Assembly: GCA_000002445.1 (NCBI GenBank)
Contig: CP000067.1
Span: 288,001 to 352,000, forward strand
Length of the DNA: 64,000 nucleotides
Direction: 5' to 3'
Source: Trypanosoma brucei
Taxonomy: Eukaryota
Below the pieces are notes generated by a model. The model was not told where the DNA came from, searched no databases, and was given only the letters and a program-made list of their open reading frames with translations. Within the stretch, counting starts at the first letter, position 1. The number at the start of each line of letters is the position of its first letter. A program made the translations under genes and the position numbers. Shown one piece after another: positions 12,197-30,235 of the stretch.

Positions 12197-13963
12197 CTAG
12201 AGTATACCATTCTGGAGAGTTTGGAACTGATCGTACCGCCTCGTCCTCCAGTTGTCCACACTACCGACAATGAGTTCCTTAATATAAAGTGCAAAATCTC
12301 CCTCGTCCTCTAGATCCAAACGAAAGCGGGACCGCAGTTGCTGGATGGCAACTTCAGGAGAGGCCCCGAAACAAGGCAAAGTGTTGTAAGGCGTCATTAG
12401 CGAGACAAGTGCTACGATATCATCAGCTTTCTCGCGTATGGCTCTCATCCCCAAGAAGAACAATAGCTTAAAGTAATTAAATGGTGAACTTCCAACACCT
12501 CCCATTACTTCAAGGAGCTCTTGTGACAGTTTGAAAGGGGCTGATTCGAAGTTGACACCACCGGGAGATGTGACGAGCATAAAACCAAAGTCTATGTGCA
12601 CCAAACGGCCGTCTGCCCTTATCAAAATGTTCCCGTTGTGTCTATCTTTCACCTGAAGGATATAGGTAAAGATACTGTAACCAGCCATTGTCTCCACGAA
12701 ATTTCGCTGAGCCTCCCTATATCTTTGGGAACCCTTGCCACCAAAGGCCTCATTGAAGAACTGGGGAAGGTACGCCATCTGACATGACTTCTTGATTCCA
12801 TCAATGGAACAGGCACCCTCTACACACTCAATAATTCCAGAATCCACACCGACGGCAAGTGCCCTATAGGGGACAAGAGAGCATGTAAGTCCGGCATTCT
12901 TCCATATATTGTTGAAGAGGTCAACAAGTTGTAACGCCAACTCCTCTTGCCGCAAATTATCTCCACCTTTGACCACAAATGTGGCTGTACCCCAATTAGG
13001 ATGCCTCCCAAAGAATGACTTCTCGCGCAGACGAGCAGCTCGTTCCTCCGGAAGCTCTCCAAAGACCTTCCGAAACAACTTCATGTCAGGGGAAGCGGAC
13101 TTGATCGCAGTTACCTCCCCTCCTACATCTTCCCCCCTTCGGTCCAGCGACTGCTCCTCCATCAATTCATCTGATTCCGCCGAAATTTTAAACTTTCCAT
13201 TGGGAAGTCGTAACTTAGATGTAGTTGGGTCATTGACAGTTGCAGTGGAATCAACAATGACTTCGCATCGAAGGAGAAACGGCGCTCTCTCACGAGAAAA
13301 GAATACGACACTATCTTCAACAACGATGTTTACAATCCACTTTACCGGATCGTCATTACAACCCAAAGGGCATATGAGTGACTGCGACCTCAGTGATTTG
13401 TTGATTTCATCCAGCTCCTTCTTTAGCTCATGTTGTCGCCGATCTCTCTTGGTGAACGAAATTAAATGTTTACTCAAGTTGGTGATAAGATTGAGGAATG
13501 CTCTCTCATCGTTGAAAAGCTTAAGTCGCAGTTCCTTGCGCCTAATCTCTTCCTCTACCCCGTCAGTGTTGTTGGTTCGATCTGCTACACCCTTGCGGTT
13601 GATGGCAAAACTCTCGATCTTGTCGTGCACTTCCTTCACGCGCCCTCCAAGCCCAACGGCCGAAAACACGTCGCGTACCGAGTCCACTGTCCATGAGAGC
13701 CGCAACGCCAAGGTAAAAGATCGCCCCGCCAGCCAATGCATAAAACGTCGCAGGCGGTTACTTACCTCCGGACCCTTGTGCGTGATACAAGCATGAGATA
13801 TTTGAAGGAAGACCCTTTCAATGGTTGCAAGGGGGAACTCATGCAGATTTTGAACAAGAGCCATTTGCTCATCCTGAGAACCCCTCGGTAGGTACAGCAG
13901 TACCTCCAGAAGCCTGTGAAGACAAAACAAAGCATTCGACATTGCGTGGGAAAAAGGAAACAA
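12197..13963 (-). CDS. Phosphatidylinositol 4-kinase (PI4K III-beta-like)
   Basis: 588 aa; C-terminal PI3/PI4-kinase catalytic motifs 'KDRHNGNILIRADGRLVHIDFGFML' and 'GKGSQRYREAQRNFVETMAGYSIFTYILQ'. Size and domain order fit PI4KIII-beta. Confidence 0.85.
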   Translation of the reverse strand: MFPFSHAMSNALFCLHRLLEVLLYLPRGSQDEQMALVQNLHEFPLATIERVFLQISHACITHKGPEVSNRLRRFMHWLAGRSFTLALRLSWTVDSVRDVFSAVGLGGRVKEVHDKIESFAINRKGVADRTNNTDGVEEEIRRKELRLKLFNDERAFLNLITNLSKHLISFTKRDRRQHELKKELDEINKSLRSQSLICPLGCNDDPVKWIVNIVVEDSVVFFSRERAPFLLRCEVIVDSTATVNDPTTSKLRLPNGKFKISAESDELMEEQSLDRRGEDVGGEVTAIKSASPDMKLFRKVFGELPEERAARLREKSFFGRHPNWGTATFVVKGGDNLRQEELALQLVDLFNNIWKNAGLTCSLVPYRALAVGVDSGIIECVEGACSIDGIKKSCQMAYLPQFFNEAFGGKGSQRYREAQRNFVETMAGYSIFTYILQVKDRHNGNILIRADGRLVHIDFGFMLVTSPGGVNFESAPFKLSQELLEVMGGVGSSPFNYFKLLFFLGMRAIREKADDIVALVSLMTPYNTLPCFGASPEVAIQQLRSRFRLDLEDEGDFALYIKELIVGSVDNWRTRRYDQFQTLQNGIL

Positions 13964-14413
13964 AGATACTCCCCTAAGGTCCCCCCACCACAGGAATCAC
14001 TCGGGCACGCAGTTACTGTCCGCGTCCACTCGGCTTTTCGTGTCGCGGGCATGGGCGGCATTGCGCCATTGTGACATTAAAAAAAAAAGCAAAGAAAGAA
14101 ATTAAATAGGAGGCAAACCAAACAGAAGACTTTAAAAAAAGGACAAAACTCAGAGGCAAAAAACTAACTGTAGGTCACATAAAGATGTAGGTTTTACATC
14201 ACCACGACGGAGGAAAGAAGAAAAATAACCTGTTCGGCCCAGCGTCTTCCCCACCGGGAAGCATCGTAGTTCGCGCCATTCAATGTACAACATTAGAAAG
14301 AATGAAAGAGTTCCGTGAGCAGTGATACAAGCTCCACCCATAACGACTTGTTAACGCTGTGAATTCATAAAACAAGGGGAAGCTACCAACGGCCAACGCG
14401 AAGTAACGGTTAG

Positions 14414-16654
14414 TTACTCCAACGTCCATCCCTTCCTGGAAACAACCATTTCTTCTTTCAAAAAACTCTCCTGTAGCGATGATGACGTCTTCGCCACCTT
14501 GTCAAATAGGCCCTTTTCATCGTCGTCGTATTGGGACACGACGTCAACAGTTTTTACCTCGACCGGAAATGCCGGGAGAGGTCGCAACATGTGATGATCC
14601 TTCCCCAAACTTTTCAGCAACCCCTCCGTGCCTGAATATCGTCTTAAGAAAGATGACTTCTTACGCAGGGCATTGTCGTACGGTACATCGATCCGGGCGT
14701 TGTGCGGCTGCGTTAACTTCAACGGGAGCCACTGCGCTGGGTTGCCACTGTTCTCACCCTTCCACTCAGCCAGTGGAGGAAGGCTCTTTTTCATCCTCGA
14801 AGAGCCAACAGCGAGAAGGTAAGGAATGTCAGGAAGAGTGTTCCTTGCTTCATGCCGTCTTAACAGCACCGTTGCCAAGGCCGAAACAAACTCTGAAAAT
14901 GAGATACCTTGGGCGCTCTCTAATGTTTCTGCGCCTTTCAATGGGATTCTTTCCTCCGACCCCTCTAATTTCGATTTTGCGAATAAAAAACAATGGTCCT
15001 TTGTACCGGAGGTAATAATACACAATTCAGCACAAGCATCATCAAACCTTTCTACAGGCAGCAAATCGTTCGCCGCGTGATGTGAAAATGCCGTCCTCAA
15101 CACCTCCATTTGGGGAGGCAAAATTACTTGCTCAAAGGGAGACTCCAGGAGAGGGACACTTTTAGTTTCGAATGTTGTGCTACCCTTTACGTCGCGTATG
15201 GATATTGTTACATCTTTGTTTGGTCTCAGCAGAAGCTTCCCCTCATCCCCATACGTGACAAATTCTACCTTTGTTCCGTCAATGGAAATATTCCACATGC
15301 TTTTTGGAATAACAACCTCTACGATGTTGGGAGCACGCTGAAATGCATTGGCGCGTTGCTCATCAACGTACACCGTACAGCGCTGAACGCCGTAAATTGG
15401 TAGGCTGTACTCCGCTGGAGTGGGACGAATGAGCTCCTCTTCAAAAAGCTTAGCAGCCATACCGGTGGTAGATGTGGGTGCTTTTGCAGCGCTTTCCTGC
15501 TTGTCCATTAAAGGAATATCGTCAAACCCATCCTCCGGAAATTTTAGTATGCGAGGAGGGTATCCCTTCCCCGGATCGGGTGTGTCACATGGCCAGTCAT
15601 CCACCGTTAAGTTCCATCCTGAAATAAGAAAAGACGACAACTTGTTCAGAGGTACCTCTGCAGGAAACACCAGATTAGCCGAAGGAGTAATGGAGGCGAA
15701 TTTGTTGTCTTTAATGGGATCTGATACCATCGGAACACCGAGGAACTTGCAATAGTAATCCTCAAACGCGGCCCACACTTTGGCCGTAAAGGGGCGGTGG
15801 TGTTTGTGCTGCGACTCGTTAGAAAAAGCAACTATCGCCAACATTAAAAGGGCCTCTGCGAACGAGTGCAACTCCAGAGCTGCTCGAGTTTCTTTATCGA
15901 CATCTGGATGAACATACTTCATTAACTTGTGTATACCAGTGAATCCATCATACGTGAACACAGAAAGCGCCGCATTCCTTTGAGAAGGAGAGAAATGTGG
16001 AAAGATATCGTCAACCATCCCCTCAAAAGATGGACGATATATCCTGCCGCACTCGGCGTAGCGATCAAACAGAGGAAAAACTATCGAATCAGCTGAAGCT
16101 GCCAGTATATGCGTAATCAAGCGGTTGGCGTACGGTGTCCAGCTATTCTTCCTAGAGTCCAACGATACAACCATTCTTTTCAATACGATGGACCTGCTGA
16201 TGAATGGCTTGAAGAAGCGGCGCATGGTGTATGTTACGCTCGAGTGGATTTTTCCCTGTTCCTCTGCACACAAAGTTACGGCTTCGGAAATTGGATGATC
16301 GTCCTCTAACATTTCAGAGAAGCGCTGTGCCTGGTAACATCGTATACATACCACATTCATAATGGTAATAAACCCGTCGATATCCATGGTAAGATCAAGG
16401 GCGTTTTTCGTTTCACCACCTTTTCCACCCTCGTTGCAACTCCGTTGCAAGCCATGATGCTGCCACAGTGCCCCAAGCAATACCTGGTAGATACCAGTGA
16501 CAGGGCCGACGACGCCAGCAGAGCGTAGAAGCGTCATGAATCCGACATACGTCAAGCGCTGCCTCCGCAAAGACTCGCCGTGACTAAGAGCAATGTCAAA
16601 CAAGAGCCCCCAGTTAGTTTCCTCACTCCTACATGTCATCGCAACGAGAGGCAA
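14414..16654 (-). CDS. Conserved hypothetical protein (746 aa)
   Basis: Long uninterrupted ORF in PTU orientation with non-repetitive composition; I recognise no family motif. Confidence 0.6.
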   Translation of the reverse strand: MPLVAMTCRSEETNWGLLFDIALSHGESLRRQRLTYVGFMTLLRSAGVVGPVTGIYQVLLGALWQHHGLQRSCNEGGKGGETKNALDLTMDIDGFITIMNVVCIRCYQAQRFSEMLEDDHPISEAVTLCAEEQGKIHSSVTYTMRRFFKPFISRSIVLKRMVVSLDSRKNSWTPYANRLITHILAASADSIVFPLFDRYAECGRIYRPSFEGMVDDIFPHFSPSQRNAALSVFTYDGFTGIHKLMKYVHPDVDKETRAALELHSFAEALLMLAIVAFSNESQHKHHRPFTAKVWAAFEDYYCKFLGVPMVSDPIKDNKFASITPSANLVFPAEVPLNKLSSFLISGWNLTVDDWPCDTPDPGKGYPPRILKFPEDGFDDIPLMDKQESAAKAPTSTTGMAAKLFEEELIRPTPAEYSLPIYGVQRCTVYVDEQRANAFQRAPNIVEVVIPKSMWNISIDGTKVEFVTYGDEGKLLLRPNKDVTISIRDVKGSTTFETKSVPLLESPFEQVILPPQMEVLRTAFSHHAANDLLPVERFDDACAELCIITSGTKDHCFLFAKSKLEGSEERIPLKGAETLESAQGISFSEFVSALATVLLRRHEARNTLPDIPYLLAVGSSRMKKSLPPLAEWKGENSGNPAQWLPLKLTQPHNARIDVPYDNALRKKSSFLRRYSGTEGLLKSLGKDHHMLRPLPAFPVEVKTVDVVSQYDDDEKGLFDKVAKTSSSLQESFLKEEMVVSRKGWTLE

Positions 16655-18803
16655 GCACCTTATACAAATTATTCGGGCTTGAAGAGCAGTGTTTTAAAAA
16701 AGTCAAAAGAAGAAGGGACATGTAACGAAGCAGCAAATATAATAATCAGTGGAGAAGAAAGCCGGGAATAGACATAGCAGGAGTTAATGAGACGCTGCCG
16801 GAACACAGCCAATAAATGTTGGCCAGTGGAGCTCCTCTAGTGACACGCAACCTTAATCTCTTTCCAGATATGAAACTCCCATTCCAACGCACTTTAGCTC
16901 ATAGCGCACCACCACCACCACTAGCTCACGCCACAGCGCGGGTACGACGGTACTGCTGGGATTGCGTTTGAACTTTTGCCCTCTGTAGTGGCGTTGAGAC
17001 CGAAGTAACTAGTGTGTCAGGTAAACTCAACAGCAAACAGAGATATGATAACGACTACGCGCCAACTCCTGCGTCCACAAGTACTTCGCCACATTCCAAG
17101 CTCACAACTGAAACTTAAATGATAGCCAAAGAGTCTAATCCAACACCTCTACACGTTGAGTCAGCTGCAGCCCATCCTGGTCACTCGTCAACGGAAAACA
17201 CAAGTGCACACCACTGAGAGCTGCTGGGAAGTCAAAACTGTAAGTAGACTGCATACCTCAATCCTCAGTCCTTTGTGTGTGTTCAACCTCCAGACACGTA
17301 GCATATACACAACTTTGCGCGCACAGATTGTTCCAGCCCCACCCATACACCACCAAAAACGTCAAGAATGTTCCCTCCCCCGCTCTGCCGTCTGTCACAC
17401 CTAATCTTCATCCCTCAACACCACAGCCACCTCTCCGCACACTGCTGCAGCAGTTGATGGCTGTGGTCAATCAGACCAACCTCCAACCGACACTGTTAAC
17501 ACCGCACCACTCTCGAATTAGTGAAAAGATGACATGCGTCGTCCAGTCGGTCGAACAACAAATATTGCAGGTCTACACCATCACGCAGGCAAACCAGCAG
17601 AATCCCACAACTTACCCAACAATAAGTGAAGCAATGCTCATCAGCGGTGTCAGGACTTTCTCTCCCGTAGCAAAAAGCCAACTATGATGTGTCACGGAGC
17701 CCCCTAGTACTCTTCCTAAACCCCACAGCAACCGTGCGTGGAGCGGGCCCAACACAATTTGAAGCTCTCTAGGCGCTTCAACAAACTGTGAAGTGCCTTC
17801 GTTTCTTCCTTCGCATGCATTTGCAAACAGAGCACAGCACCCGACTCGTTGCTGTCAACCTCAAACTGATATCTCGGCAGTTCTCCCCTTATGAAAGTAC
17901 CGGCCTTCCGATGGGAAAAGGTATATCAGCGAGAGGACATTGCGAAATATATCCGAACGACACAGCCTGAAATCAGTGCAAAACGTCGTACCGCTCCTCT
18001 CCATCCGTCTACCGCAAATAACTGGCGAGCAGATGTTTTGCGTGACCTGCAGGTTGCATCGAAATGTTGAGAGAATGAACAACATGTAACCAAGGTAATA
18101 CCAGCCCCCGTTCACACCTGTGAAACGATATCCATGTACGTACTGTTCAAAAGCAGACTTACCAAGCCATATAGCAGGGGTGAGGATCCGTTGCAAAGCG
18201 AAGGGGACAGACGACGTATAAAGGGTAAAAGCGAAAGGCACAACAAGGGATATTTCACCGCAGTAGCACCATAGCTACGCCTAAGCCCAGTACGAGCCCA
18301 TATAGCAACAGAGCCGTTGACCATCGCGCAAAAAACGAGTTTAATCGCGCATGAGTTGAGAGTCTACGTCCAGCAACTGACCGAAGGGTGCGACGTAGGG
18401 TTGAAACAAAAACCAAGTGGTGGTCACCTACGACAATACAGCGCCTTAATGTGCGGCAAAGATCGTCCAATTAGAGCCTAGGTAATCCCCGAACTCACAC
18501 ACGTGGTGTACATGAAGCTATGTAGTACAAACATCGAACGCCTATGAACATATCAACCATTTAAATGTACCATCTCGACCGAATGTCGCGAATTTGTGCG
18601 CGCAAGACCGACCAAACAACACAAAACTGAGCTAGTGATAGAACCAAGGCCACTGAACTGGGTACGGTTAAGGGGCGTTTTGTGATACTCTACACCGTCC
18701 CGACACCTCAAGTGCGTGAATTAAGCAATAAAAAATGCTGCGAGGTTAACCACCGAAACAGCAACCCTGCGGATCGGTACCCGCACCGGACGTCGATACT
18801 CTA

Positions 18804-21530
18804 TCACGACCATTTTTTAAGGAAAGGGTTGACGAGCACGTCCGGGTCGTCTGAAGAATCCCTCTTCCCCTCGACGACAGGAGGTATATCGCCACCCCAA
18901 ACGTGTCTCGTGGGCTGCGGAGAACCAGCTTGGTGACGCTGCGTGAAGTTCAGTGGCGCTGCGGGATACCCCGCGCTTGCTGCCGTTGGTGGTTTTGGAT
19001 GTGCTAACGAAGTCTTACTGGGCCCCATGCTTAGCTGTTTCACGGCAGAAGTTGGAACGGGCGCAAGATTCACCACAGGGGGCAGTGGGGCCGACACGCC
19101 TGCTGCAGCACCCGGAAATAGTTCCGCGGGACCACTCTGTGGTCCACCTTTAATAGGGTGGACTTCAGCCGCCTGATCTCCATGATGCTGCAGGTTCGTT
19201 GAAACCCTTCCAGCACATTGGAATTGCACTTCATTCGCTGATACCCTTTCCGTTTTAAAGTGTCTCCTTTGCTTCCAGCATTGTTGCAAAAATCCAGACG
19301 CGCTGACAGCAACAATACTAATAACTGTGAAAAAAAGTGTGCTCATATTTATCGAAGACGTTTCGCCTCCGTAAGTTCCCACATCACCACCAGCGAACGG
19401 GTTAGCATCGAGGGTTTGAGACTGCCCTGGAGCAGGTGTATTGCCGTGACTATCACCTACAGTGGTATTATCACTGGCGGTACAGCGGCAACCACCAACC
19501 GAAAAATCAGACTTATCTCGACCCCCTTGAACTGCTTCGTCGGTTAATCCAACAGTGTCCACGATTTTCGCCACAACCTGCCTAAGCTTCATAACACCTT
19601 CACGGCACTCGGGCACCAATTGATTCTGAACAACGCAGCGCCCCCTCATATTATACACATCGTCACCAATCAGGCTGGCGAGTGCGCTCGCGTCGTCAGC
19701 CAACTGCTTCAAAAGCACAACAAAATCCGTTCCATCCTCTCTGGTCTCTTCTAAAGAGACCTTGCCATCCCTCTCATAACGTTTCTGCAACTCAGTTTCA
19801 TCATCATCAGGTTGCTGTGGCTCAGCTTCATTATCATCAGGTTGCTGTGGCTCAGCTTCATTATCATCAGGTTGCTGTGGCTCAGTTTCATTATCATCAG
19901 GTTGCTGTGGCTCAGTTTCCTTATCATCAGGTTGCTGTGGCTCAGCTTCATTATCATCAGGTTGCTGTGCCTCAGTTTCCTTATCATCAGGTTGCTGTGC
20001 CTCAGTTTCATTATCATCAGGTTGCTGTGGTTCAGTTTCCTTATCATCAGGTTGCTGTGCCTCAGTTTCCTTATCATCAGGTTGCTGTGCCTCAGTTTCC
20101 TTGTCATCAGGTTGCTGTGCCTCAGTTTCCTTATCATCAGGTTGCTGTGGTTCAGTTTCCTTATCATCAGGTTGCTGTGCCTCAGTTTCCTTATCATCAG
20201 GTTGCTGTGCCTCAGTTTCCTTGTCATCAGGTTGCTGTGCCTCAGTTTCCTTATCATCAGGTTGCTGTGCCTCAGTTTCATTATCATCAGGTTGCTGTGG
20301 TTCAGTTTCCTTATCATCAGGTTGCTGTGCCTCAGTTTCCTTATCATCAGGTTGCTGTGCCTCAGTTTCCTTGTCATCAGGTTGCTGTGCCTCAGTTTCC
20401 TTATCATCAGGTTGCTGTGCCTCAGTTTCATTATCATCAGGTTGCTGTGCCTCAGTTTCATTATCATCAGGTTGCTGTGGCTCAGTTTCCTTATCATCAG
20501 GTTGCTGTGCCTCAGTTTCATTATCATCAGGTTGCTGTGCCTCAGTTTCATTATCATCAGGTTGCTGTGCCTCAGTTTCATTATCATCAGGTTGCTGTGC
20601 CTCAGTTTCCTTATCATCAGGTTGCTGTGCCTCAGTTTCCTTATCATCAGGTTGCTGTGGCTCAGTTTCCTTGTCATCAGGTTGCTGTGCCTCAGTTTCA
20701 TTATCATCAGGTTGCTGTGCCTCAGTTTCATTATCATCAGGTTGCTGTGCCTCAGTTTCCTTATCATCAGGTTGCTGTGCCTCAGTTTCCTTGTCATCAG
20801 GTTGCTGTGCCTCAGTTTCCTTGTCATCAGGTTGCTGTGCCTCAGTTTCATTGTCATCAGGTTGCTGTGGTTCACTTTCATTATCATCAGGTTGCTGTGC
20901 CTCAGTTTCCTTATCATCAGGTTGCTGTGCCTCAGTTTCCTTATCATCAGGTTGCTGTGGTTCACTTTCATTATCATCAGGTTGCTGTGCCTCAGTTTCC
21001 TTGTCATCAGGTTGCTGTGCCTCAGTTTCATTGTCATCAGGTTGCTGTGGTTCACTTTCATTATCATCAGGTTGCTGTGCCTCAGTTTCCTTATCATCAG
21101 GTTGCTGTGCCTCAGTTTCCTTATCATCAGGTTGCTGTGGTTCACTTTCATTATCATCAGGTTGCTGTGCCTCAGTTTCCTTGTCATCTGGCGGCTTTAC
21201 ACGAGCTGATCCATTGGTGGTGTGTGCTGCATCCCTCTCCTCTTCGTTGTGGTTTTTGGCTCTCATCACTTGGCTGCCGCGGCCCACGTTGTTCTCGTCC
21301 GCCTCCTGACGTCCTTGGGCGCCAGTCTTGAGCTGAGTATCGGTTCTGTGGAGGCCGCCATCGCCTTCGACAGGAAACCGAGGTGCTCTGTTGCTTCTGC
21401 GCACTGCTTTCAATGTCCGTGCCTCGCCCACTTTACCTGTGTTAGCGTGTGCTATACAAGTAGAACACCAGCCTGCAACGCATGACACAACGGTTAACAG
21501 AAGTATCTTTGCGGTGTGGAGATGACGCAT
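18804..21530 (-). CDS. Type-I membrane protein with about 47 tandem acidic decapeptide repeats (PDD[K/N]ETE[A/P]QQ)
   Basis: 908 aa: N-terminal signal peptide 'MRHLHTAKILLLTVVSCVAGWCSTCIAHA', a long 10-aa repeat array, a cysteine-containing unique domain, a TM helix 'LFFTVISIVAVSASGFL', and a Pro-rich cytoplasmic tail. The repeat holds all three frames open on both strands, which explains the overlapping ORFs in the track. Confidence 0.8.
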   Translation of the reverse strand: MRHLHTAKILLLTVVSCVAGWCSTCIAHANTGKVGEARTLKAVRRSNRAPRFPVEGDGGLHRTDTQLKTGAQGRQEADENNVGRGSQVMRAKNHNEEERDAAHTTNGSARVKPPDDKETEAQQPDDNESEPQQPDDKETEAQQPDDKETEAQQPDDNESEPQQPDDNETEAQQPDDKETEAQQPDDNESEPQQPDDKETEAQQPDDKETEAQQPDDNESEPQQPDDNETEAQQPDDKETEAQQPDDKETEAQQPDDKETEAQQPDDNETEAQQPDDNETEAQQPDDKETEPQQPDDKETEAQQPDDKETEAQQPDDNETEAQQPDDNETEAQQPDDNETEAQQPDDKETEPQQPDDNETEAQQPDDNETEAQQPDDKETEAQQPDDKETEAQQPDDKETEAQQPDDKETEPQQPDDNETEAQQPDDKETEAQQPDDKETEAQQPDDKETEAQQPDDKETEPQQPDDKETEAQQPDDKETEAQQPDDKETEAQQPDDKETEPQQPDDNETEAQQPDDKETEAQQPDDNEAEPQQPDDKETEPQQPDDNETEPQQPDDNEAEPQQPDDNEAEPQQPDDDETELQKRYERDGKVSLEETREDGTDFVVLLKQLADDASALASLIGDDVYNMRGRCVVQNQLVPECREGVMKLRQVVAKIVDTVGLTDEAVQGGRDKSDFSVGGCRCTASDNTTVGDSHGNTPAPGQSQTLDANPFAGGDVGTYGGETSSINMSTLFFTVISIVAVSASGFLQQCWKQRRHFKTERVSANEVQFQCAGRVSTNLQHHGDQAAEVHPIKGGPQSGPAELFPGAAAGVSAPLPPVVNLAPVPTSAVKQLSMGPSKTSLAHPKPPTAASAGYPAAPLNFTQRHQAGSPQPTRHVWGGDIPPVVEGKRDSSDDPDVLVNPFLKKWS
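19791..21196 (-). repeat. Tandem array of about 47 copies of a 30-bp coding repeat
   Basis: Unit 'ctcagtttccttatcatcaggttgctgtgc' (+ strand), with variant positions giving K/N and A/P alternations. The array is in-frame, with no spacers or leader, so it is coding and not CRISPR. Confidence 0.95.
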
Positions 21531-21800
21531 CGTTAGGCCACCTTGGGAGTAGCTGATATTGAAGAAAGCACACCCCTTCAGATGATGAACTAAACAACAG
21601 GCTCAACTGTATGAGGTAGGTATTGAAATCCTGGGAAAATGTTGGGCGGGACCCCAACCACCTTACAAAGTGAAGGAGGTAGGAAAAGAAAATAACATGA
21701 TGACTCGGCAAACCACAAAATCTCTGACGCAGCAGTTAAATCAAGCAATAAAAAAGTGTTTCAACCATTGGTACCAAAAACCGGGTCCCTTACACAAATA

Positions 21801-22820
21801 TTAATCCCTACGTAGAGAAAATTCCATGGTGTCACCGGGAACAGTATCTATCCTAACCGGCTCCACACCCATGGTATCTATACTGGTACCAATCCGCATC
21901 ATTGTTCCACCGATGCGTTGCGGCTTCACGGGCGGGAGGTTTCTCAAAGATGGAGGTACCACTGGTGGCGCGTCGTATCCCACTTCTTCGAGTGACAAGC
22001 AAGGCCCCCTGGACCCAGCGCCACCAAGGAGGTCTCGCACGTCGCCTCTGGGATGAGGTACTACTATTTCAATAATATCAAGAGGCTTCATCTCCTTCTT
22101 CACTTCCTTTGCCATAACTTCATGCTTTATTTTCCACACACCTGACCCCTCCAGTGCCGCCTCGTCACGAATTTCCTCCGTGGTTTTTAGAGGTGCTGGG
22201 ATCGACCGAAGAATGTCGTCAGCAGCGGCTTTGGCTATATTAAGATCCTTCGCCTCGCTTTTAAGAAGAATAACCACGTGCTTCATGTTCCTTTCGGATG
22301 CAATATAGAGAGGACTTTTCCCATCTATGTCACAAACTTCAGTCTTCGCGTCCGCCCGAAGCAGGCGGTACACGACCTCGTGAAATCCCGCTTTAGCTGC
22401 AACGAACAGTGGAGTTTCTTTCCTACTGTTACGGGCATTAATATCACCTCCTTTTGCTAATATGATCTCAATGAGAGCAGCGTCACCGATGCGGGAAGCC
22501 AAATGCAGGACAGTCTCTCCGCCGCCGCCATTTACCACATTAGGATTCGCACCCCTTTCCAGCAGCAGCTGCGCAACATCCCTCTTTCCGTTAAAGCACG
22601 CTATGTACAGCGGGGTTTCAAGATCTGAACCCTTTAAATCTGTTTGCGCCCCCAGCTGCAGAATCTCCTTGACGGTGCTAACACCTACCCCCTTCTTCAT
22701 GCATGCGTAGTAGAGTGGCGTGTATCCGTCGGAGTTCGTAGTATTTACGTTGCCACACGACAAGGTGCGACGCAGTGTACCATGGTCCTGGCGGTCAATT
22801 GCATCAAAGGCGGCTTCCAT
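21801..22820 (-). CDS. Ankyrin-repeat protein
   Basis: 339 aa with several ANK units ('GYTPLYYACMKKG', 'ETPLYIACFNGKRDVAQLLLERGANPN', 'ETVLHLASRIGDAALIEIILAKGGDINARN', 'ETPLFVAAKAGFHEVV', 'KSPLYIASERNMKHVVILL'). Confidence 0.9.
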   Translation of the reverse strand: MEAAFDAIDRQDHGTLRRTLSCGNVNTTNSDGYTPLYYACMKKGVGVSTVKEILQLGAQTDLKGSDLETPLYIACFNGKRDVAQLLLERGANPNVVNGGGGETVLHLASRIGDAALIEIILAKGGDINARNSRKETPLFVAAKAGFHEVVYRLLRADAKTEVCDIDGKSPLYIASERNMKHVVILLKSEAKDLNIAKAAADDILRSIPAPLKTTEEIRDEAALEGSGVWKIKHEVMAKEVKKEMKPLDIIEIVVPHPRGDVRDLLGGAGSRGPCLSLEEVGYDAPPVVPPSLRNLPPVKPQRIGGTMMRIGTSIDTMGVEPVRIDTVPGDTMEFSLRRD

Positions 22821-24826: not shown

Positions 24827-26057
24827 TTGATTTGGTGGCGAGTGATATCAGATCTTGACGTCGAGCTAATGAGACTCAGTACGAAAAAAGTGCACGCAAC
24901 CTTTGTTTTCGTGGCAATGACAAAAGGTTCAAGTACCTTTAATGTGCGTAAAGAAGTTTTTTATAAAAAACTAAATTCATTTTTTGAAGCCCCACCAATC
25001 GGAACCCATCCACTCCTTCAATACTAACCACAGTGAAGTACTGGGATGTTATCGTGCAAAATAAAAAGGGTTGTGCATACGTGCTTATGCAACATAATTG
25101 ATTTCGTTCCACCCCCGTGTCAGATTTTCCTGGTTAGCACCTCCAACGTTTTGCTGGTACCTTTAAACGACAAATCTGTTTAGACAACATAGGAAAAGGC
25201 AAAGGAGTGAAAAGAAAACGTTAAAGGTGCCGCTGAAGGTTTGCACCACCTCAAAAAAACAAATAAATAAATAAAACGACGGTGGGGTAGAGAAGCGACT
25301 GCTGGTGGCGTAAACGGTGGATGCTGCAACCTCCGAAAAATGGCATATCTCTCTCAGGTCGTGGAGAGCAAACCATTCAACTAGAATGGCGAAAAGGAAG
25401 CACGGCAGACAAGTGCGCTTCTTCAAATCGCACGCACGCACGCACCATCACAGTGAAAAGGGGTATATGACACCTTTAGTTGGCTTCATGAACCAATGTA
25501 CAAATATTAGTAATACCATGTCCGAAAAATACAAGTCGCATTGCGCAATCAAACCGACGACGGGTTTGAGAAAGATGTGCCTTCAAGTAGTTGGTAAAAG
25601 GAGGGAAAGTTCGTACACACAAGCGAATGTGAGAGAGCCGCAATAATGGTTTCCCCGCTCTTCTGTTATTACACCGCCTGAATGAGACATTGTCCCTTCC
25701 CATCACCCTCAACAAGTTGATTACACCCATGGCACCAAATCTCCGCGTTGTGGAAACACGCGGCACGCCCATAATAAGCAGGCAAACTCACTACCACCCC
25801 ACACACATTTACGTCATTGGGAAGTTCTTGGCGCTCAACTTGGCTTGGGTGACAGATACAGCATTTTTTCTCTAGTTTCAGCGGCATAAAAATGGTTAGC
25901 TGCGGTTGAGCAGGACGTCAACAATCGTTAAATTCGGTGAATGGATCCTCCCCACCACCCCACCACCAAAAGGGAAAAAATGCAATCACGCGCAAACACG
26001 GCAAATCATAAAAACGCACTGAGGGGCCGCTTGATCATTAGGTAACCACACATTTGC

Positions 26058-26059
<2 letters not shown>

Positions 26060-26088
<29 letters not shown>
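26060..26088. repeat. (AC)14 microsatellite
   Basis: Perfect dinucleotide run. Confidence 0.95.
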
Positions 26089-29000
26089 CAAAATGGCACC
26101 ATCCTTAAAGTGAGGCGGAAGGGTAAGGGACATTTTCACCTTCCCATCAATCACTTAAAGCGACATAAGTGGCAGTAAGTGTGGCAACTTCAAGGGAAAA
26201 GGCAGTCCAAGTTGACAAGAGAAGGCAACATTATCCCAGCGGATATTCAACAAAATGTGAGATGCTGGGTTCTATCTAGTAAGCAGAACGGCATCTTACC
26301 CCTTCCTTTGAAGGGTGAACCCACATAATTAAACAAAGAGAAAAAGAAAATATCTGAACAAAAAACCAACGTACTCACTTATAAGTGTATATTGTAGCTT
26401 GAATGAAGACAGTGAGGCGCAGCACTCGATAAAGAATAAAATTTTGTTGTCAACCGTTCGCCGCAGTGAAAGATCACATAAAGGAAATACAGTGCGGGAA
26501 TCACCGCAAAACTTTCCAGAGTCCGTCTTCATCCTTCAAATCAACCTCCATAAAGACGACGAGTTGGAACAGCAAATTCCGAGCCGCTACAACCTCCAGC
26601 CGACGTAGTGCAAAACTGTGAAGCTCTCACATATTTAGCCGACGATCCAATCCTGTTTTTTTCTCTTTTCACACACTGCTGCATTCAAAAGTAGAAAGCG
26701 AGCAGAACAATTTGAACTTAAAAAACGGGGAAGCTAGGCTGTGACATATATCCCACAGCTGTGATCACCCAACTCCCAGCGCTGGGGATAAAACTGGAAA
26801 GTTAATCAGGGAAACAAACGAATGCATCAGACGCTCCTACAGGAAAAAAAAAGATCTGACTCATTCTAATTGACCCAGAAGCGCAAAAGGTTATAGTATC
26901 GCTGCTGTGAAGAGTAGCTTCATCACCACAACCGTCGCGTGGCATCAGCAACCCCTAACACCACATTACAGCAACTGTTACACGGTTTTTTAAAAAAAAA
27001 TCGTACCGTTAAGGGTACCAGCCTAAACAAAGACGTAAAAGCGTCCCTAATAGCATCGATTATTGAAAATGCTGAGTGAAAAATGTGCCTCACGTACCAA
27101 AGCAGTGCGTAAGCTCTTCTTATGCACAACTCAACCCAAGCCTTTCGGGGTCAAGGAAGTTTTTTTCTTGGATGGCCGTATGTACAGCCCAGCACTCGAG
27201 GGAAGCGCAGTCCGCGCAAAGGTAGTAAGGCATTGGGGTGGTGAACCCTCAAAAATGAAATTCCAGCGCATCACTACGAACGCATAGTCAAGCGTTCGGA
27301 ACCCTTGTACAAAACCAAACATCAAAAAGAGTTGCTGATGCAAATGGCGTACAAGTGAGGGCGCTCACAGAAGTTGTTAGCGCCTGCACCACTGTCACCC
27401 CCTCCCCTTCCCATCTCTCCATATGTCGGGTCAGTTATGTGCTTACCGATGGGCAAAACGGTTGAATAATAAGCAACAAACCGTAGTAACCTTCATTTTG
27501 ACTTCAACACAAAAACATTCTTGGCTTTCGCAGATATCCCCGCTCCAAGAGGATTGAAAGGACCGCACATACAACTGAACCTCCAAACAGCCAAAAGGGG
27601 GAAAGTCACCGGCACAACCTAACATCCACCACGCAAGAAGGATACAGAAGTGCCACGTCACAAAAATCAGTACATTCACTACACTAATACCTTCGCTTCG
27701 GACTGGTTACAACCAGTTCGCCGCGAGATAGGGCGCTACTGGATGAAGCTCGCAACCCCTTCACACCTCGCCCACAAAAGTCCAGGATACTTTACAGCAC
27801 ATTGTATGGTCCCCTTCAACGGCGACGACCACGACTGCATTGCACAATTTTGACGGATGGTTTTAAAAAAACAAGCGGAAGAAACAGGGGAATGTGCACA
27901 TACGATCCAACAAAGAACGTAGTAGCAGAATCAGGCTCACGAATTTCATCCTTGCAGCATCTTGCCGCTCCGGAAACCATATAAACAGTAACTTGAAAAC
28001 ACATTTCCACTACTACGCATACACAGAAAATAATGTGTGGTGCGCCGCGGAAGAACGTGCACGCCGACACATAGCAGATGCATCAATAAAGCAAACTAAG
28101 ACCAAATAACACAGGTTCAAACGGTTACATTGGTCGCATCACAAAGTAGCACTGGTAGCCGGTACAAATGCTAACAATGCCCAAACTTCTCAACGAATCA
28201 ACAAGTTATGTCCCTTCGTTGTTGAAAGAATCACATGATCATAAACACACAAGTACGTTTCCACAACCTACCTTCTCCCAGTCCACAAGACAAATAACGG
28301 ACTGAACAGTCCACTATGATGTCCCTTATTACTTTTTTTTCTTTAAAAAAATGACAAAGAACAGTTCTTCTGTCATAGTGTTGCTCCCAGAAAGTCCCAT
28401 TGAACACATGGGGTGGTAGAACACACGTAACCTCATTACCACTCGTGGTGTGGTACCTACATTGTACCCAATATGCAGATCGGTTATCAGAATCAGTTAA
28501 TCACACCAACACTGCAATTCTTTCCGCGAGTACCGACACATGTTATTCGAAGTGACGGCGTGATGTCAGCGACACGTGGCGACGGCGGTGCCGTAACCCC
28601 AGCGCCTGCTTCATGGCCAACATAAATAAGTTCCTGGTAATAGCTGGTTAAGACCTATTGCACCAACTATGTCGAATTACCGCCCAAGACTTAAAAACCG
28701 CGGCAGCTGAAGGAGGGAATGACACAGAATGGGTCAGGAAGCGGGAGAGAAATGATGATATTCACCTCCCCTACTTCTATTTGCAAAGCTTTAAAAAAAA
28801 CTCTACTATTCTCCATCCACCTCATAGCTGAGGTTGAGACCCTCAAATGAATTTCCACAGAAACACACACACACACCCGAAACCTTCTGTAACCCACCGC
28901 ACCAAACCATCATTGGGATCTCCGCTTCCGACTCTTTGCATGGATCAAGTGCAGGAAGATACATTACCAAGGAAAGAACACAAACGTAACTAGCACTACA

Positions 29001-29913
29001 AAAAAAAAAACTAACCTAATGAGGAGGGGCACAATGGAAGAAAATGCCCTGAAAGGACCGTGACACTTCGCCAGCACCATGGAAATCAAGCACGATTCTT
29101 CCAATCGCTTATAAAGGCACGAGTTTGACCACTCGCGTTTAACCTGGAATAGCAGAAGCCAGCAATCACTGTGTTCCAGATGGGGACCGTTATCCAGGCA
29201 TCGCAAGGCGGACCCGCTGCAACAGATACTTCTGTAAGACTAGGAAATATTCAAACAGAGAAATAGGTGAGGAAAACTGTATTTGTTCGAGGTGAAAAAA
29301 AACTCCCAGGAGCATCTGCCAACAAACACACGGGTGTGGAGTTCGGTGTAATCGCCCCCTGATGGTGGCGGGGGCGGCGTACCCTTAGAGGGGCTAAGTT
29401 CACGCGCAAGATGGGAACGCAGCCAAATATGCTTAAAAGCAGGTACAGTCACTCGCTTCAATGGGGGTGATAGCCTCGGACGGCGCGGTAGAACCCGAGT
29501 GGACACACTTCTGAGGCCACACCATCCTCACCACGTTACATCCGAATGCGGTGCTGGAACTTGCTTCGCCCGCGAATTTTATTGAAGGCACAGTGTCTTT
29601 CCAACGGGGAAAGAGGTTACCTCTGATGAGAGGATGTGTGAAATCACCGCCACACTCTATCTCCAAACGGCATTGGGGAAAAATTGGAAAGGTGGCGGAA
29701 ATAACTGCAGGGCCCTCTCCCGAAAAGGAAGAAAAAAGTCGCCATTAGCGCTTCCTACGACAAAATGTGAAAGCTTTGTACATCTTTATGAAGGATTGGA
29801 AAGAAAAACGAGGGGAAGTATTTTAGAACACACTCCGTCACTGACGAAAGCGGAAACCCCAGGGCGAGGCCGACACCTCGTCACTCACCCTTCCCACTAG
29901 ATGCGGAAAAAGC

Positions 29914-29985
29914 GGGCCGTTGCGGGAATCGAACCCGCGGCCTCCTGTACCCGAAACAGGAATCATGCCACTAGACCAAACGGCC
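29914..29985 (-). tRNA. tRNA-Pro (anticodon CGG)
   Basis: Reverse complement 'GGCCGTTTGGTCTAGTGG...CCTGT-TTCGGGT-ACAGG...GGGTTCGATTCCCGC-AACGGCC' gives a 72-nt cloverleaf with a 7-bp acceptor stem, a T-loop 'GTTCGATTCC', and anticodon loop 'uuCGGgu'. Confidence 0.85.
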
Positions 29986-30075
29986 ACCGCGTCAGGGGCG
30001 ATAATTAATATACTTCTGGGTGCCACCTAAATTTCCACGTTCAGTCGTTGTTGACATTTGTTCAGGTGAGGCGAT

Positions 30076-30235
30076 GCCGGCCACCTCAACGTGGTGCCAT
30101 GGTCCAGTACCCCGTATCATCGGGGGAAGCCAAGAGCCAGCAGCATTCCTTTCATGGGGAACAATGCTTTGCTTTTGCAACGGCACCGAGCAGCACTGAG
30201 ATGAGCCGCGCCGTGATGGAGAACATTTTTTTTTT
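30076..30235 (+). ncRNA. Candidate Pol III small RNA, copy A (about 155 nt; unassigned; 5' end has an SRP-RNA/Alu-domain-like flavour)
   Basis: It starts about 90 bp downstream of the divergent tRNA-Pro (29985), which is the tRNA-dependent Pol III arrangement typical of trypanosomatid U6/7SL/U3-type genes. It ends in T10 (30226-30235). It carries a conserved 10/11-bp hairpin ('agcagc(g/a)ttcc-tttcatgg-ggaaca(c/a)tgct'). The 5' 100 nt are almost identical to copy B. Confidence 0.55.

What the first reader, a model, noticed from the sequence alone, without database searches (positions are those of the whole stretch)
18804..21530. About 47 x 30-bp in-frame repeat array encoding an acidic PDD(K/N)ETE(A/P)QQ decapeptide in a type-I membrane protein
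The array is 1.4 kb of near-perfect 30-bp units with only three or four variant sites (K/N, A/P, T/S), arranged in a non-random higher-order pattern (runs of K-A, N-A, K-P units). The protein has a signal peptide, the repeat ectodomain, a Cys-containing juxtamembrane domain, one TM helix and a Pro-rich tail. This is the architecture of trypanosomatid immunodominant repeat antigens and of some flagellar or endocytic membrane proteins. Because the unit is 30 bp, every frame on both strands is open, giving four phantom ORFs in the track. Repeat number is likely polymorphic and collapse-prone in assemblies.
Basis: seen in the sequence. Interest (0 to 1): 0.5.

Follow-up and report, generated by a model that had tools for sequence, protein, structure and literature searches.

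The report
Trypanosome membrane protein with repeat spacer
The 47-unit, 30-bp repeat is real and encodes the acidic outer stalk of an uncharacterised Trypanosoma brucei membrane protein (inferred Tb927.4.1160); that protein belongs to an unnamed family found in every trypanosomatid examined, which keeps its membrane-proximal module and last twelve residues but has a different repeat in each lineage.

Summary
An intact 908-aa ORF (18804-21530, minus strand) carries 47 in-frame 30-bp units (19782-21191). The unit order is non-random. Five of the six reading frames are open across the array, which gives four phantom ORFs.

Published splice-site coordinates place the window at T. brucei TREU927 chr4:288,001-352,000. 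The gene occupies the Tb927.4.1160 slot and is annotated only as hypothetical. No paper in the library mentions that ID.

Copy number is polymorphic: a long-read T. b. equiperdum assembly has 30 units in a different order. Three short-read assemblies break inside the array.

Sequence searches found no homologues outside the T. brucei group. Synteny, however, shows the same gene after the ankyrin gene in T. congolense, T. vivax, T. theileri, T. melophagium, T. grayi, T. cruzi, Leptomonas and Novymonas. All have a signal peptide, a long charged region, a TM helix, a Pro-rich tail and a C-terminus L-x-N-(P/L)-F-L-x-x-W-S. Six Trypanosoma species also share a helix/C-x9-C/helix module. The charged region differs per lineage. 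It is Pro-free and ER/K-like in T. cruzi and T. theileri, and Pro-punctuated and polyanionic in T. brucei, where it carries 16 N-glycosylation sequons.

Most likely the array is a rapidly evolving spacer, and the conserved C-terminus binds an unknown partner. Function is inferred, not shown.

The parts
18804..21530 (-). Complete ORF with stop codon, 908 aa. Inferred to be Tb927.4.1160 of T. brucei TREU927 (chr4 306,804-309,530, reverse strand).
   Evidence: ORF. The start codons of Tb927.4.1140.1150 and .1170, taken from Kolev 2010 Table S12, equal window 13942, 16639 and 22820 plus exactly 288,000. The TrypTag primers for Tb927.4.1170 match window 21721-21800 and 21804-21885 exactly.
21444..21530 (-). 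Predicted cleaved signal peptide, aa 1-29 (MRHLHTAKILLLTVVSCVAGWCSTCIAHA|N).
   Evidence: Hydrophobic peak at aa 4-29. An A-x-A motif sits at positions -3 and -1. No dedicated signal-peptide predictor was available.
21192..21443 (-). N-terminal non-repeat region, aa 30-113. It is basic, has no Cys in the mature part, and is probably not globular.
   Evidence: Composition. It is 338/339 nt identical to T. b. equiperdum L002 and 339/339 to L001.
19782..21191 (-). 47 x 30-bp in-frame array, aa 114-583, unit PDD(K/N)E(T/S/A)E(A/P)QQ. It is 40% D+E and 13% Pro, with net charge about -34 per 100 aa and 16 N-x-S/T sequons.
19347..19781 (-). Juxtamembrane extracytoplasmic region, aa 584-728. It holds the conserved helix/C-x9-C/helix module and a second Cys pair (C681, C683).
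   Evidence: Alignment A1 and Cys positions.
19551..19730 (-). Helix-loop-helix module, aa 601-660. The C-x9-C loop is at aa 632-642 (window 19605-19637).
   Evidence: C-x9-C is present in T. brucei, T. vivax, T. theileri, T. cruzi and T. grayi and in T. melophagium. The helices come from a low-confidence AF2 model with pLDDT 41 and are a hint only.
19278..19346 (-). Single transmembrane helix, aa 729-751, followed by KQRRHFK (positive-inside).
   Evidence: Kyte-Doolittle 19-residue windows above 1.5 occur only here and at the N-terminus.
18843..19277 (-). Cytoplasmic Pro-rich tail, aa 752-896. It is poorly conserved.
   Evidence: 21 Pro in the last 153 residues. Overall identity of the non-repeat half to the orthologues is 17-27%.
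18807..18842 (-). Conserved extreme C-terminal peptide DVLVNPFLKKWS, aa 897-908.
   Evidence: L, N, F, L, W and S are invariant in eight lineages, and the mean pairwise identity of the last 12 aa is 0.71. T. melophagium also fits.
21661..21692 (-). Polypyrimidine tracts (21692-21681 and 21679-21672) followed by AG at 21663-21662. This is a putative trans-splice acceptor and would give a 5'UTR of about 131 nt.
   Evidence: Read from the sequence. This is an inference; no spliced-leader read data were seen for this gene.
19682..21331 (+). Phantom ORF of 549 aa, produced by the stop-free repeat. Three more phantoms lie at 19751-21187 (-), 19812-21209 (+) and 20101-21309 (+).
   Evidence: Five of six frames have no stop across the array. 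The translations are simple periodic nonsense.

Best explanation
Identity. The ORF is a real, single-copy T. brucei gene on chromosome 4, inferred to be Tb927.4.1160 and annotated only as hypothetical. It encodes a type-I membrane protein.

Family. It is the T. brucei member of an unnamed family that is conserved by position across Trypanosoma and Leishmaniinae. The shared build is:
- a cleaved signal peptide;
- a long, highly charged extracytoplasmic region;
- a helix/C-x9-C/helix module next to the membrane (seen in six Trypanosoma species);
- one TM helix;
- a disordered Pro-rich cytoplasmic tail;
- an almost invariant C-terminal peptide, (D/E)-(V/L)-L-x-N-(P/L)-F-L-x-(R/K)-W-S.

Role of the array. 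The 30-bp array encodes the T. brucei version of the charged region. That region is kept as a long hydrophilic spacer, but its sequence is not conserved.
- In each lineage a different short unit has been amplified and homogenised. Unequal recombination or slippage is the likely cause. It would explain the block duplications, the divergent edge units, and the different copy number and unit order between strains.
- In T. cruzi, T. theileri, T. grayi and T. melophagium the units are Pro-free E/R/K/A/Q units of the kind that form rigid single alpha-helices.
- In T. brucei and T. congolense the units have a Pro (and Gly) every 10-11 residues, so the region cannot be one continuous helix.
- The T. 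brucei array should therefore be an extended, disordered, strongly polyanionic stalk or brush. The K/N variant site switches N-glycosylation sequons on and off.

Role of the C-terminus. The conserved cytoplasmic C-terminus most likely binds a conserved kinetoplastid partner that sorts or anchors the protein.

Shown versus inferred.
- Shown: sequence, architecture, synteny, motif conservation, polymorphism.
- Inferred: membrane topology, physical state of the array, glycosylation, the spacer role, and the function of the motif.
For: Array and ORF
- Both are confirmed.
- The hydropathy profile fits a type-I topology.

Locus identity
- Two TrypTag primers match the window exactly.
- Three published start-codon coordinates all fit an offset of exactly 288,000.
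- PI4K-beta is Tb927.4.1140 and the ankyrin gene is Tb927.4.1170.

Single copy and fast divergence
- An exhaustive phmmer search of the 325-aa non-repeat part against 1.84 billion representatives gave one true hit.
- That hit is the T. b. equiperdum protein RHW73039.1, 99% identical outside the array, with 30 units.

Synteny
- The order LicD / PDCD2 / ankyrin / this gene / 740-aa gene / PI4K holds in T. b. equiperdum, T. vivax, T. theileri, T. cruzi, T. grayi, T. melophagium and Leptomonas, and over the part of the locus recovered in T. congolense and Novymonas.

Shared architecture and C-terminus
- Seen in all orthologues.

Repeat units differ
- 30 bp x 46.6 here, 33 bp x at least 15.7 in T. 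congolense, 27 bp x 53.9 in T. vivax, 30 bp x 20.5 in T. theileri, and 30 bp x 26.9 in T. cruzi.
- T. melophagium mixes 30- and 39-bp units. Leptomonas has no short-period array.

Physical contrast
- T. brucei is 13% Pro with no i/i+4 acid-base pairs.
- T. cruzi and T. theileri are 0% Pro and Gly with 30-34 such pairs per 100 aa.

Recombination signature
- Block duplications, and a different unit order in three T. brucei-group assemblies.
Against: - No experimental data on expression, localisation, glycosylation or partners were found.
- The inferred ID is absent from the bloodstream surface-proteome supplements and from the other supplements that could be searched. Several of those files are truncated.
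- The signal peptide and topology rest on hydropathy and the A-x-A rule only.
- Orthology outside the T. brucei group rests on position, architecture, a short motif and the C-x9-C module. Overall identity is only 17-27%, and single-sequence HMMER did not connect the proteins.
- T. brucei lacks the W-T-W motif that precedes the TM helix in the other Trypanosoma species.
- A spacer role is an argument from 'length and charge kept, sequence not kept'. It is not a test.
- The structure model was too poor to use (pLDDT 41).
Confidence: 0.6

Rival explanations
1. The array exists mainly as an immunodominant B-cell repeat antigen, a decoy or 'smokescreen' selected by the mammalian immune response.
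For: The array is high-copy, hydrophilic and probably extracellular. From my own knowledge, tandem-repeat proteins of trypanosomatids are often strong B-cell antigens (Goto and colleagues); that paper could not be read here. The shift to a Pro-containing polyanionic unit is seen only in the bloodstream-dwelling T. brucei and T. congolense.
Against: The family, with its long charged region, is also present in the insect-only trypanosomatids Leptomonas pyrrhocoris and Novymonas esmeraldas, which face no antibody response. The inferred ID is not in the bloodstream surface-proteome supplements held. No serology was available.
Confidence: 0.15
2. The conserved C-terminal NPF is a classical endocytic signal read by EH-domain proteins of the Eps15 type. 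The protein would then be a clathrin-dependent endocytic cargo or receptor of the flagellar pocket.
For: N-P-F lies six residues from the C-terminus in 9 of 10 genomes. In the three salivarian species it is preceded by an acidic D-V-L-(V/E) stretch resembling [DE]xxxL[LIV] sorting signals (the motif class is from my own knowledge).
Against: [quoted passage not shown] T. grayi has N-L-F (codons AAC CTG TTT). The invariant residues extend beyond NPF to L, W and S, which points to a different and larger recognition surface. Whether other EH-domain proteins such as the EHD type exist in T. brucei was not tested.
Confidence: 0.12
3. The copy number or arrangement of the array in this window is an assembly artefact (collapse or expansion), although the gene itself is real.
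For: At 1.4 kb of 94%-identical units, the array is longer than a Sanger read. Short-read assemblies of relatives break in it. A long-read relative has 30 units, not 47.
Against: The frame is intact through all 47 units. The unit order has structured blocks and degenerate edge units rather than a monotonous collapse. The spacing between Tb927.4.1150 and .1170 in the 2010 reference is identical to the window, although that is the same assembly. The difference from T. b. equiperdum includes a different unit order and private unit types, as expected of true polymorphism.
Confidence: 0.2
4. The acidic array is a high-capacity cation (for example Ca2+) binding domain in the lumen of an organelle, like calsequestrin, rather than a spacer.
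For: 189 of 470 array residues are D or E, giving a net charge of about -161.
Against: Strong net negative charge is not conserved in the family. T. cruzi and T. theileri are about -11 per 100 aa and Leptomonas about -7, with balanced E and R/K. There is no localisation evidence.
Confidence: 0.06

Closest known systems
CRAM, the cysteine-rich acidic repetitive membrane protein of the T. brucei flagellar pocket. From my own knowledge (Lee et al. 1990); not retrieved here.
   Same: A T. brucei type-I membrane protein whose ectodomain is almost entirely a long array of short acidic repeats, followed by one TM helix and a cytoplasmic tail that carries routing information.
   Different: CRAM's 12-residue units are Cys-rich, whereas this array has no Cys. 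It is a different locus. No sequence comparison was possible with the tools.
Procyclins (EP and GPEET) of T. brucei. From my own knowledge.
   Same: Pro-punctuated, strongly acidic short repeats thought to form an extended polyanionic rod or brush outside the membrane. Some forms are N-glycosylated.
   Different: Procyclins are small and GPI-anchored. This protein has an internal TM helix followed by 157 cytoplasmic residues and a hydrophilic C-terminus. Unit length is 10 residues here, against 2 or 5.
ER/K single alpha-helix (SAH) spacer domains, known from myosins and other mostly cytosolic proteins. From my own knowledge.
   Same: The orthologous arrays of T. cruzi (AEEEAEKRRQ) and T. theileri, T. 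grayi and T. melophagium (AEAEEAxRRQ) have the SAH signature. They have no Pro or Gly, no hydrophobic heptad, and 30-34 i/i+4 acid-base pairs per 100 aa in the two measured, T. cruzi and T. theileri. This suggests the family's charged region works as a spacer.
   Different: The T. brucei unit has a Pro every 10 residues and no i/i+4 pairs, so it is not an SAH. Helicity was not measured or modelled for any orthologue. An extracytoplasmic SAH would itself be unusual.
Tandem-repeat (TR) antigens of trypanosomatids, a class defined by Goto and colleagues. From my own knowledge; PMC3042534 is not held.
   Same: A high-scoring in-frame tandem repeat in a trypanosomatid protein that has a signal peptide.
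   Different: Antigenicity was not tested. The family also occurs in insect-only trypanosomatids.
Conserved kinetoplastid type-I surface or endomembrane proteins (ESPs; Gadelha et al. 2015, PMC4587319).
   Same: That study notes that type-I and type-II TM proteins of the T. brucei surface tend to be conserved across kinetoplastids and that no common sorting motif is known. This family fits the first point and offers a candidate motif.
   Different: The inferred ID is not in the supplements of that study as held.

Membership tests
In-frame tandem-repeat protein | Head-to-tail units whose length is a multiple of three, in an uninterrupted ORF | tested here: met
   Period 30, 46.6 copies, 94% matches, no indels. 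47 units lie in frame in a 908-aa ORF.
Type-I (single-pass, N-out) membrane protein | N-terminal cleavable signal peptide | tested here: inconclusive
   There is a hydrophobic segment at aa 4-29 with A-H-A before N30, and the same feature occurs in the orthologues. No signal-peptide predictor or experiment was available.
Type-I (single-pass, N-out) membrane protein | One internal TM helix with basic residues on the C-terminal side | tested here: met
   The only other hydrophobic 19-mer windows fall at aa 724-751, followed by KQRRHFK.
Unnamed kinetoplastid family (positional orthologues of Tb927.4.1160) | Position between the ankyrin-repeat gene and the ~740-aa gene upstream of PI4K-beta | tested here: met
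   The flanking gene order is the same wherever both flanks were recovered. The T. congolense contig ends just after the gene, and the Novymonas locus was recovered only in part.
Unnamed kinetoplastid family (positional orthologues of Tb927.4.1160) | Extreme C-terminus L-x-N-(P/L)-F-L-x-(R/K)-W-S | tested here: met
   T. brucei has DVLVNPFLKKWS. L, N, F, L, W and S are invariant in all lineages.
Unnamed kinetoplastid family (positional orthologues of Tb927.4.1160) | Juxtamembrane helix / C-x9-C / helix module | tested here: met
   CVVQNQLVPEC lies at aa 632-642. C-x9-C is also in T. vivax, T. theileri, T. cruzi, T. grayi and T. melophagium. It is missing from T. congolense because of an assembly gap, and it is not evident in Leptomonas or Novymonas.
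Unnamed kinetoplastid family (positional orthologues of Tb927.4.1160) | W-(T/N)-W immediately before the TM helix | tested here: not met
   The motif is present in T. congolense, T. vivax, T. theileri, T. cruzi, T. grayi and T. melophagium. T. brucei has INMSTLFF instead. It is therefore a frequent feature, not a defining one.
ER/K single alpha-helix domain | Long Pro/Gly-free stretch with dense i/i+4 Glu-Lys/Arg pairs | tested here: not met
   The T. brucei array is 13% Pro, its longest Pro-free run is 9 residues, and it has 0 i/i+4 pairs per 100 aa. The T. cruzi and T. theileri orthologues do meet the criterion.
CRAM-type cysteine-rich acidic repeat protein | Cys-rich repeat units | tested here: not met
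   There is no Cys in the 470-aa array.
GPI-anchored acidic repeat coat protein (procyclin type) | C-terminal hydrophobic GPI-addition signal and no cytoplasmic domain | tested here: not met
   The C-terminus is hydrophilic (…NPFLKKWS), and 157 residues follow the TM helix.
NPF / EH-domain endocytic cargo | An NPF motif in the cytoplasmic tail AND an EH-domain reader in the organism | tested here: inconclusive
   NPF is present in 9 of 10 genomes, and T. grayi has NLF. Eps15 and Eps15R are reported lost in kinetoplastids (PMC4450294). Other EH-domain proteins were not examined.
Any curated protein family | A match to Pfam, NCBIfam or a solved structure | tested here: not met
   Pfam gave nothing for T. 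brucei or for five orthologues at E up to 1. NCBIfam gave only far-sub-threshold low-complexity matches to the T. cruzi orthologue's repeat region (bit scores 10-14 against cut-offs of 650 and 1150). The six-species profile found nothing in the PDB at E up to 1.
Immunodominant tandem-repeat antigen | Recognition by sera of infected hosts | not testable with these tools
   No serological data were available, and the key paper (PMC3042534) is not held.

The most novel reading that the evidence does not exclude
[quoted passage not shown] In this reading, an extracytoplasmic rod acts as a molecular ruler or spacer and is rebuilt again and again from new tandem repeats. The rod is a rigid ER/K-type single helix in most lineages, which would be unusual outside the cytosol. 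In the T. brucei and T. congolense lineages it was replaced by a flexible, Pro-punctuated, polyanionic brush, glycosylatable in T. brucei, perhaps as an adaptation to life under a VSG coat in blood. The invariant C-terminal peptide L-x-N-P-F-L-x-R-W-S would be a new kinetoplastid-specific sorting or anchoring signal with a dedicated reader, in a group that lacks Eps15 and in which no shared surface-sorting motif has yet been found (T. brucei also lacks AP-2).
Probability: 0.25. Interest if true: 0.6.

Novelty: new member of a known kind. Interest (0 to 1): 0.35.

Why it matters
On its own the array is an ordinary feature of trypanosome genomes. It is a polymorphic in-frame repeat in an annotated but unstudied membrane protein, and mostly a warning for assemblers and gene callers.
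- Relatives' assemblies break in it.
- Two orthologues are not called as genes.
- It produces four phantom ORFs.

The comparative result adds something more useful.
- Sequence searches see nothing outside the T. brucei group.
- Synteny nevertheless reveals one family across Trypanosoma and Leishmaniinae that keeps only a small membrane-proximal module and a 12-residue cytoplasmic C-terminus.
- The large outer region is replaced lineage by lineage.

This gives a natural experiment on what a repeat spacer must conserve: length and charge, rather than sequence. It also gives a concrete short peptide with which to search for a sorting or anchoring partner. Kinetoplastids lack Eps15 and T. brucei also lacks AP-2 (PMC4450294), and no common surface-targeting motif has been found in them (PMC4587319).

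A practical point follows. C-terminal tagging of this protein would mask the conserved peptide.

Tried and rejected
Searches that found nothing
- The search for homologous proteins with the 325-aa and then the 203-aa non-repeat parts found nothing, not even the 99%-identical T. b. equiperdum protein. I treat this as a miss of the word index, not as evidence of absence.
- The exact 908-aa product is not on record in the assembly index.
- Pfam, NCBIfam and PDB sequence searches gave no family.

Structure
- A single-sequence AlphaFold model of aa 584-760 had pLDDT 41. It was not used for a fold search. The tool does not accept alignments that contain the orthologues.

Repeat-unit homology
- I tested whether the T. 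brucei 30-bp unit is homologous to the T. cruzi or T. theileri 30-bp units by best cyclic alignment against shuffles.
- The best matches were 14 of 30 positions (T. cruzi) and 16 of 30 (T. theileri), with p = 0.03-0.66. Homology is not demonstrable.

Literature
- No paper contains the repeat or C-terminal peptides.
- No main text holds Tb927.4.1160.
- It is absent from the supplements held for the surface proteome, TrypTag, the differentiation proteome and the transcriptome. Several of these files are truncated.
- Goto et al. 2011 and Shimogawa et al. 2015 are not held.
- Tb927.4.1110, a GPI-predicted protein, was considered as the identity and rejected on coordinates.

Other rejections
- P0002, the second hit of the exhaustive search, is a repetitive ENA sequence and is spurious.
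- The two 331-aa ORFs on opposite strands in the window are unrelated.
- A classical NPF-Eps15 reading was downgraded after and the T. grayi NLF variant.


Full report
**1. The observation**

The minus strand carries an uninterrupted ORF at 18804..21530 that encodes 908 aa. Tandem Repeats Finder reports one array at 19791-21188 with period 30, 46.6 copies, 94% matches, no indels and a score of 2383. Reading the frame gives 47 decapeptide units at aa 114-583 (window 19782-21191). The last unit is degenerate, PDDDETELQK.

There are 12 DNA unit types and 7 peptide types. Apart from the terminal unit, only seven nucleotide positions vary. Three are synonymous, and four change three residues: K/N, T/S/A and A/P.

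The unit order is not random. Units 2-7 recur as units 8-13, and the block CECI occurs three times. NESEP units lie only at the 5' end and NEAEP units only at the 3' end. Only 0.6% of 20,000 shuffles reach the longest repeated unit-string, and none reach the observed number of repeated 3- or 4-unit strings.

Five of the six frames are stop-free across the array, and the sixth has 197 stops. This explains the four phantom ORFs of 402-549 aa.

**2. Architecture**

Only two segments are hydrophobic. The first is aa 4-29, which ends in A-H-A before N30. The second is aa 724-751 (TM taken as 729-751), which is followed by KQRRHFK.
- The array is 40% D+E and 13% Pro, has no Cys, and carries a net charge of about -161.
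- The K-to-N variant (AAG/AAT) creates NET or NES sequons, 16 in all.
- Between the array and the TM helix lie 145 residues with four Cys (C632, C642, C681, C683).
- After the TM helix come 157 residues; the last 153 contain 21 Pro.
- Upstream of the ATG are polypyrimidine tracts and an AG at 21663-21662, as expected of a trans-spliced gene. This is an inference.

**3. Where the window comes from**

All long ORFs but one lie on the minus strand. The neighbouring ankyrin gene is identical in a T. equiperdum assembly.

The TrypTag primers for Tb927.4.1170 match window 21721-21800 and 21804-21885 exactly, and they encode the C-terminus of the ankyrin ORF.

Splice-site and 5'UTR data from Kolev et al. 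2010 place the start codons of Tb927.4.1140.1150 and .1170 at chr4 301,942, 304,639 and 310,820. These equal window 13,942, 16,639 and 22,820 plus exactly 288,000. PI4K-beta is Tb927.4.1140 (PMC7595295).

So the window is T. brucei TREU927 chr4:288,001-352,000. The ORF fills the only ID slot between .1150 and .1170, which makes it Tb927.4.1160. This is inferred, because the ID itself was never seen next to the sequence. No paper in the library mentions that ID, and it was not in the supplements that could be searched.

**4. Polymorphism and assembly behaviour**

An exhaustive phmmer search of the 325-aa non-repeat C-terminal part against 1.84 billion representatives found one true relative. 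It is RHW73039.1, a 'hypothetical protein' of T. brucei equiperdum, and is 738 aa long.
- It lies at the syntenic chromosome-4 locus of a chromosome-scale assembly, which I believe to be a long-read assembly.
- Outside the array it differs at 5 of 438 residues.
- Its array has 30 units in a different order, with private unit types.

A short-read T. equiperdum contig simply ends after ten units, again in a different order. Copy number and arrangement are therefore truly variable, and the array does break assemblies. The 47-unit count of the reference itself could not be verified.

**5. Relatives found by synteny**

Sequence searches could not reach beyond the T. brucei group, so I used the conserved PDCD2 gene two genes upstream to fetch the syntenic loci of other species. 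In every one, the slot after the ankyrin gene holds a gene of the same design.

| Species | Length | Charged region | C-terminus |
|---|---|---|---|
| T. congolense | broken by an N-gap | 33 bp x at least 15.7, TQPEGD(G/R)EH(D/G)A | …DVLVNPFLQRWSR |
| T. vivax | 931 aa | 27 bp x 53.9, about EQAEQHREE | …DVLENPFLHRWSR |
| T. theileri | 700 aa | 30 bp x 20.5, AEAEEAERRR | …ELRNPFLQRWS |
| T. melophagium | 640 aa | mixed 10- and 13-residue units | …ELRNPFLQRWS |
| T. grayi | N-gap inside the array | AEAEEAQRRQ | …ELQNLFLQRWS |
| T. cruzi | 680 aa | 30 bp x 26.9, AEEEAEKRRQ | …ELRNPFLQRWS |
| Leptomonas pyrrhocoris | 968 aa | no short array, about 350 aa rich in E/R/A/Q | …ELENPFLSRWS |
| Novymonas esmeraldas | not determined | long A/E/R-rich region | …ELHNPFLSRWS |

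In the alignment of the non-repeat halves, overall identity to T. brucei is only 17-27%. Even so, L, N, P, F, L, W and S of the last ten residues are invariant in the six sequences aligned. With T. grayi and Novymonas added, L, N, F, L, W and S stay invariant, and the last 12 residues are 71% identical on average.

A C-x9-C loop between two predicted helices is shared by six Trypanosoma species. A W-(T/N)-W motif precedes the TM helix in all Trypanosoma examined except T. brucei.

No member matches Pfam at E up to 1, and the family profile finds nothing in the PDB. NCBIfam gave only far-sub-threshold low-complexity matches to the T. cruzi repeat region.

**6. What differs**

The charged regions are physically different.

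| Species | Pro | Gly | i/i+4 acid-base pairs per 100 aa | Net charge per 100 aa |
|---|---|---|---|---|
| T. cruzi, T. theileri | 0% | 0% | 30-34 | about -11 |
| T. vivax | 0% | 0% | 3.7 | -26 |
| T. congolense | 8.7% | 15.7% | 0 | -28 |
| T. brucei | 13% | 0% | 0 | -34 |

- T. cruzi and T. theileri have the composition typical of ER/K single alpha-helices (my own knowledge).
- The T. brucei and T. congolense arrays cannot form one long helix.
- T. brucei alone has N-glycosylation sequons in the array.
- Homology between the 30-bp units of T. brucei and those of T. cruzi or T. theileri cannot be shown.
- Even the close pair T. theileri and T. melophagium differ in unit organisation.

**7. Interpretation**

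The simplest reading has three parts.
- The family needs a long hydrophilic extracytoplasmic spacer, and the sequence of that spacer is free to change.
- Short units are repeatedly amplified and homogenised by unequal recombination or slippage. This fits the block duplications, the divergent edge units and the differences between strains.
- The conserved parts carry the specific functions. These are the small disulfide-loop module next to the membrane and the cytoplasmic C-terminal peptide, which would bind a partner that sorts or anchors the protein.

A classical NPF-Eps15 mechanism is unlikely. [quoted passage not shown] T. grayi has NLF, and conservation extends well beyond NPF.

A purely immunological role for the repeats is hard to reconcile with the family's presence in insect-only trypanosomatids. 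It could still have shaped the T. brucei and T. congolense versions.

A cation-storage role is unlikely, because strong net acidity is not conserved.

Expression, localisation, glycosylation and function were not shown by any data I could reach.

**8. Comparison with known things**

The protein works like other trypanosome repeat-bearing type-I proteins.
- CRAM is the closest in design, but CRAM's units are Cys-rich.
- Procyclins are the closest in repeat chemistry, but they are GPI-anchored.
- PSSA-2 also has a Pro-rich tail, but it is a different gene on chromosome 10 (my own knowledge).
- The protein is not a member of any curated family.

**9. Verdict**

The observation and the structural interpretation are correct. 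The gene is annotated but unstudied, so this is a new member of a known kind. Interest is modest. The main added value is the unnamed family revealed by synteny and its conserved C-terminal peptide.

Noticed in passing
window 37763-38181: A small-RNA gene cluster. U6 snRNA lies at 37763-37858 (-), with a divergently oriented tRNA-Thr(CGU) at 37958-38030 (+) about 100 bp upstream. From my own knowledge, this is the classical trypanosome arrangement in which the tRNA's internal promoter elements drive the snRNA gene. An 85-nt tRNA-Tyr(GUA) lies at 38097-38181 (-); its extra length suggests the known intron. A separate tRNA-Pro(CGG) is at 29914-29985 (-).
   Followed up: partly
window 24827-43000, especially 30001-32463: This stretch is poor in long ORFs. 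It holds the only sizeable plus-strand ORF that does not overlap a longer minus-strand ORF (31468-32463, 331 aa; Tb927.4.1200 by the Kolev splice-site coordinate 319,455). GC skew turns positive in 30-32 kb, so there is a local strand switch next to the tRNA-Pro gene. Kolev's table also lists two non-annotated transcripts (Tb4.NT.8 and Tb4.NT.9) at about window 26,877 and 29,215.
   Followed up: partly
window 31468-32463 (+) and 41308-42303 (-): Two ORFs of exactly 331 aa lie on opposite strands and looked like a possible inverted duplication. BLASTP shows they are unrelated (E = 0.019 over 44 residues), so the equal length is a coincidence.
   Followed up: yes
L007 12421-15216 (T. vivax) and L013 about 12211-16230 (Novymonas): The orthologues of this gene are not among the called genes of these loci in the public collection, although the ORFs are intact. 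The repeat-rich ORFs were evidently skipped by the gene callers.
   Followed up: partly
L006 about 8160-8370 (T. congolense), L012 12463-12620 (T. grayi), end of L001 (T. equiperdum OVI): Three independent short-read assemblies have a gap or a contig end at or next to the repeat array of this gene. In T. congolense this splits the gene into two called genes of 340 and 242 aa.
   Followed up: yes
L009 14417-14674 (T. theileri); tail region of the L012 ORF (T. grayi): The cytoplasmic Pro-rich tails of some orthologues carry tandem duplications of their own. T. theileri has 117 bp x 2.2, and T. grayi has a duplicated GPPRPGAGMLNAPQHGAASSQR block. Repeat expansion in this family is therefore not confined to the ectodomain.
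   Followed up: no
window 14414-16654 (-): The downstream neighbour (Tb927.4.1150, about 741 aa) has no Pfam match, yet it is conserved at the same position in T. vivax, T. theileri, T. cruzi, T. grayi, T. melophagium and Leptomonas. It is another unannotated conserved kinetoplastid protein.
   Followed up: no
window 16655-18803: A 2.1-kb stretch without convincing ORFs lies between the stop codon of the repeat gene and the next gene. It could be an unusually long 3'UTR. The 126-aa ORF at 17861-18241 (-) within it looks non-coding.
   Followed up: no
tool behaviour (versus 17): The word-indexed protein search failed twice to return a 99%-identical protein that the exhaustive search showed to be in the same collection. 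Negative results from that tool on low-complexity or eukaryotic queries should not be read as absence.
   Followed up: yes
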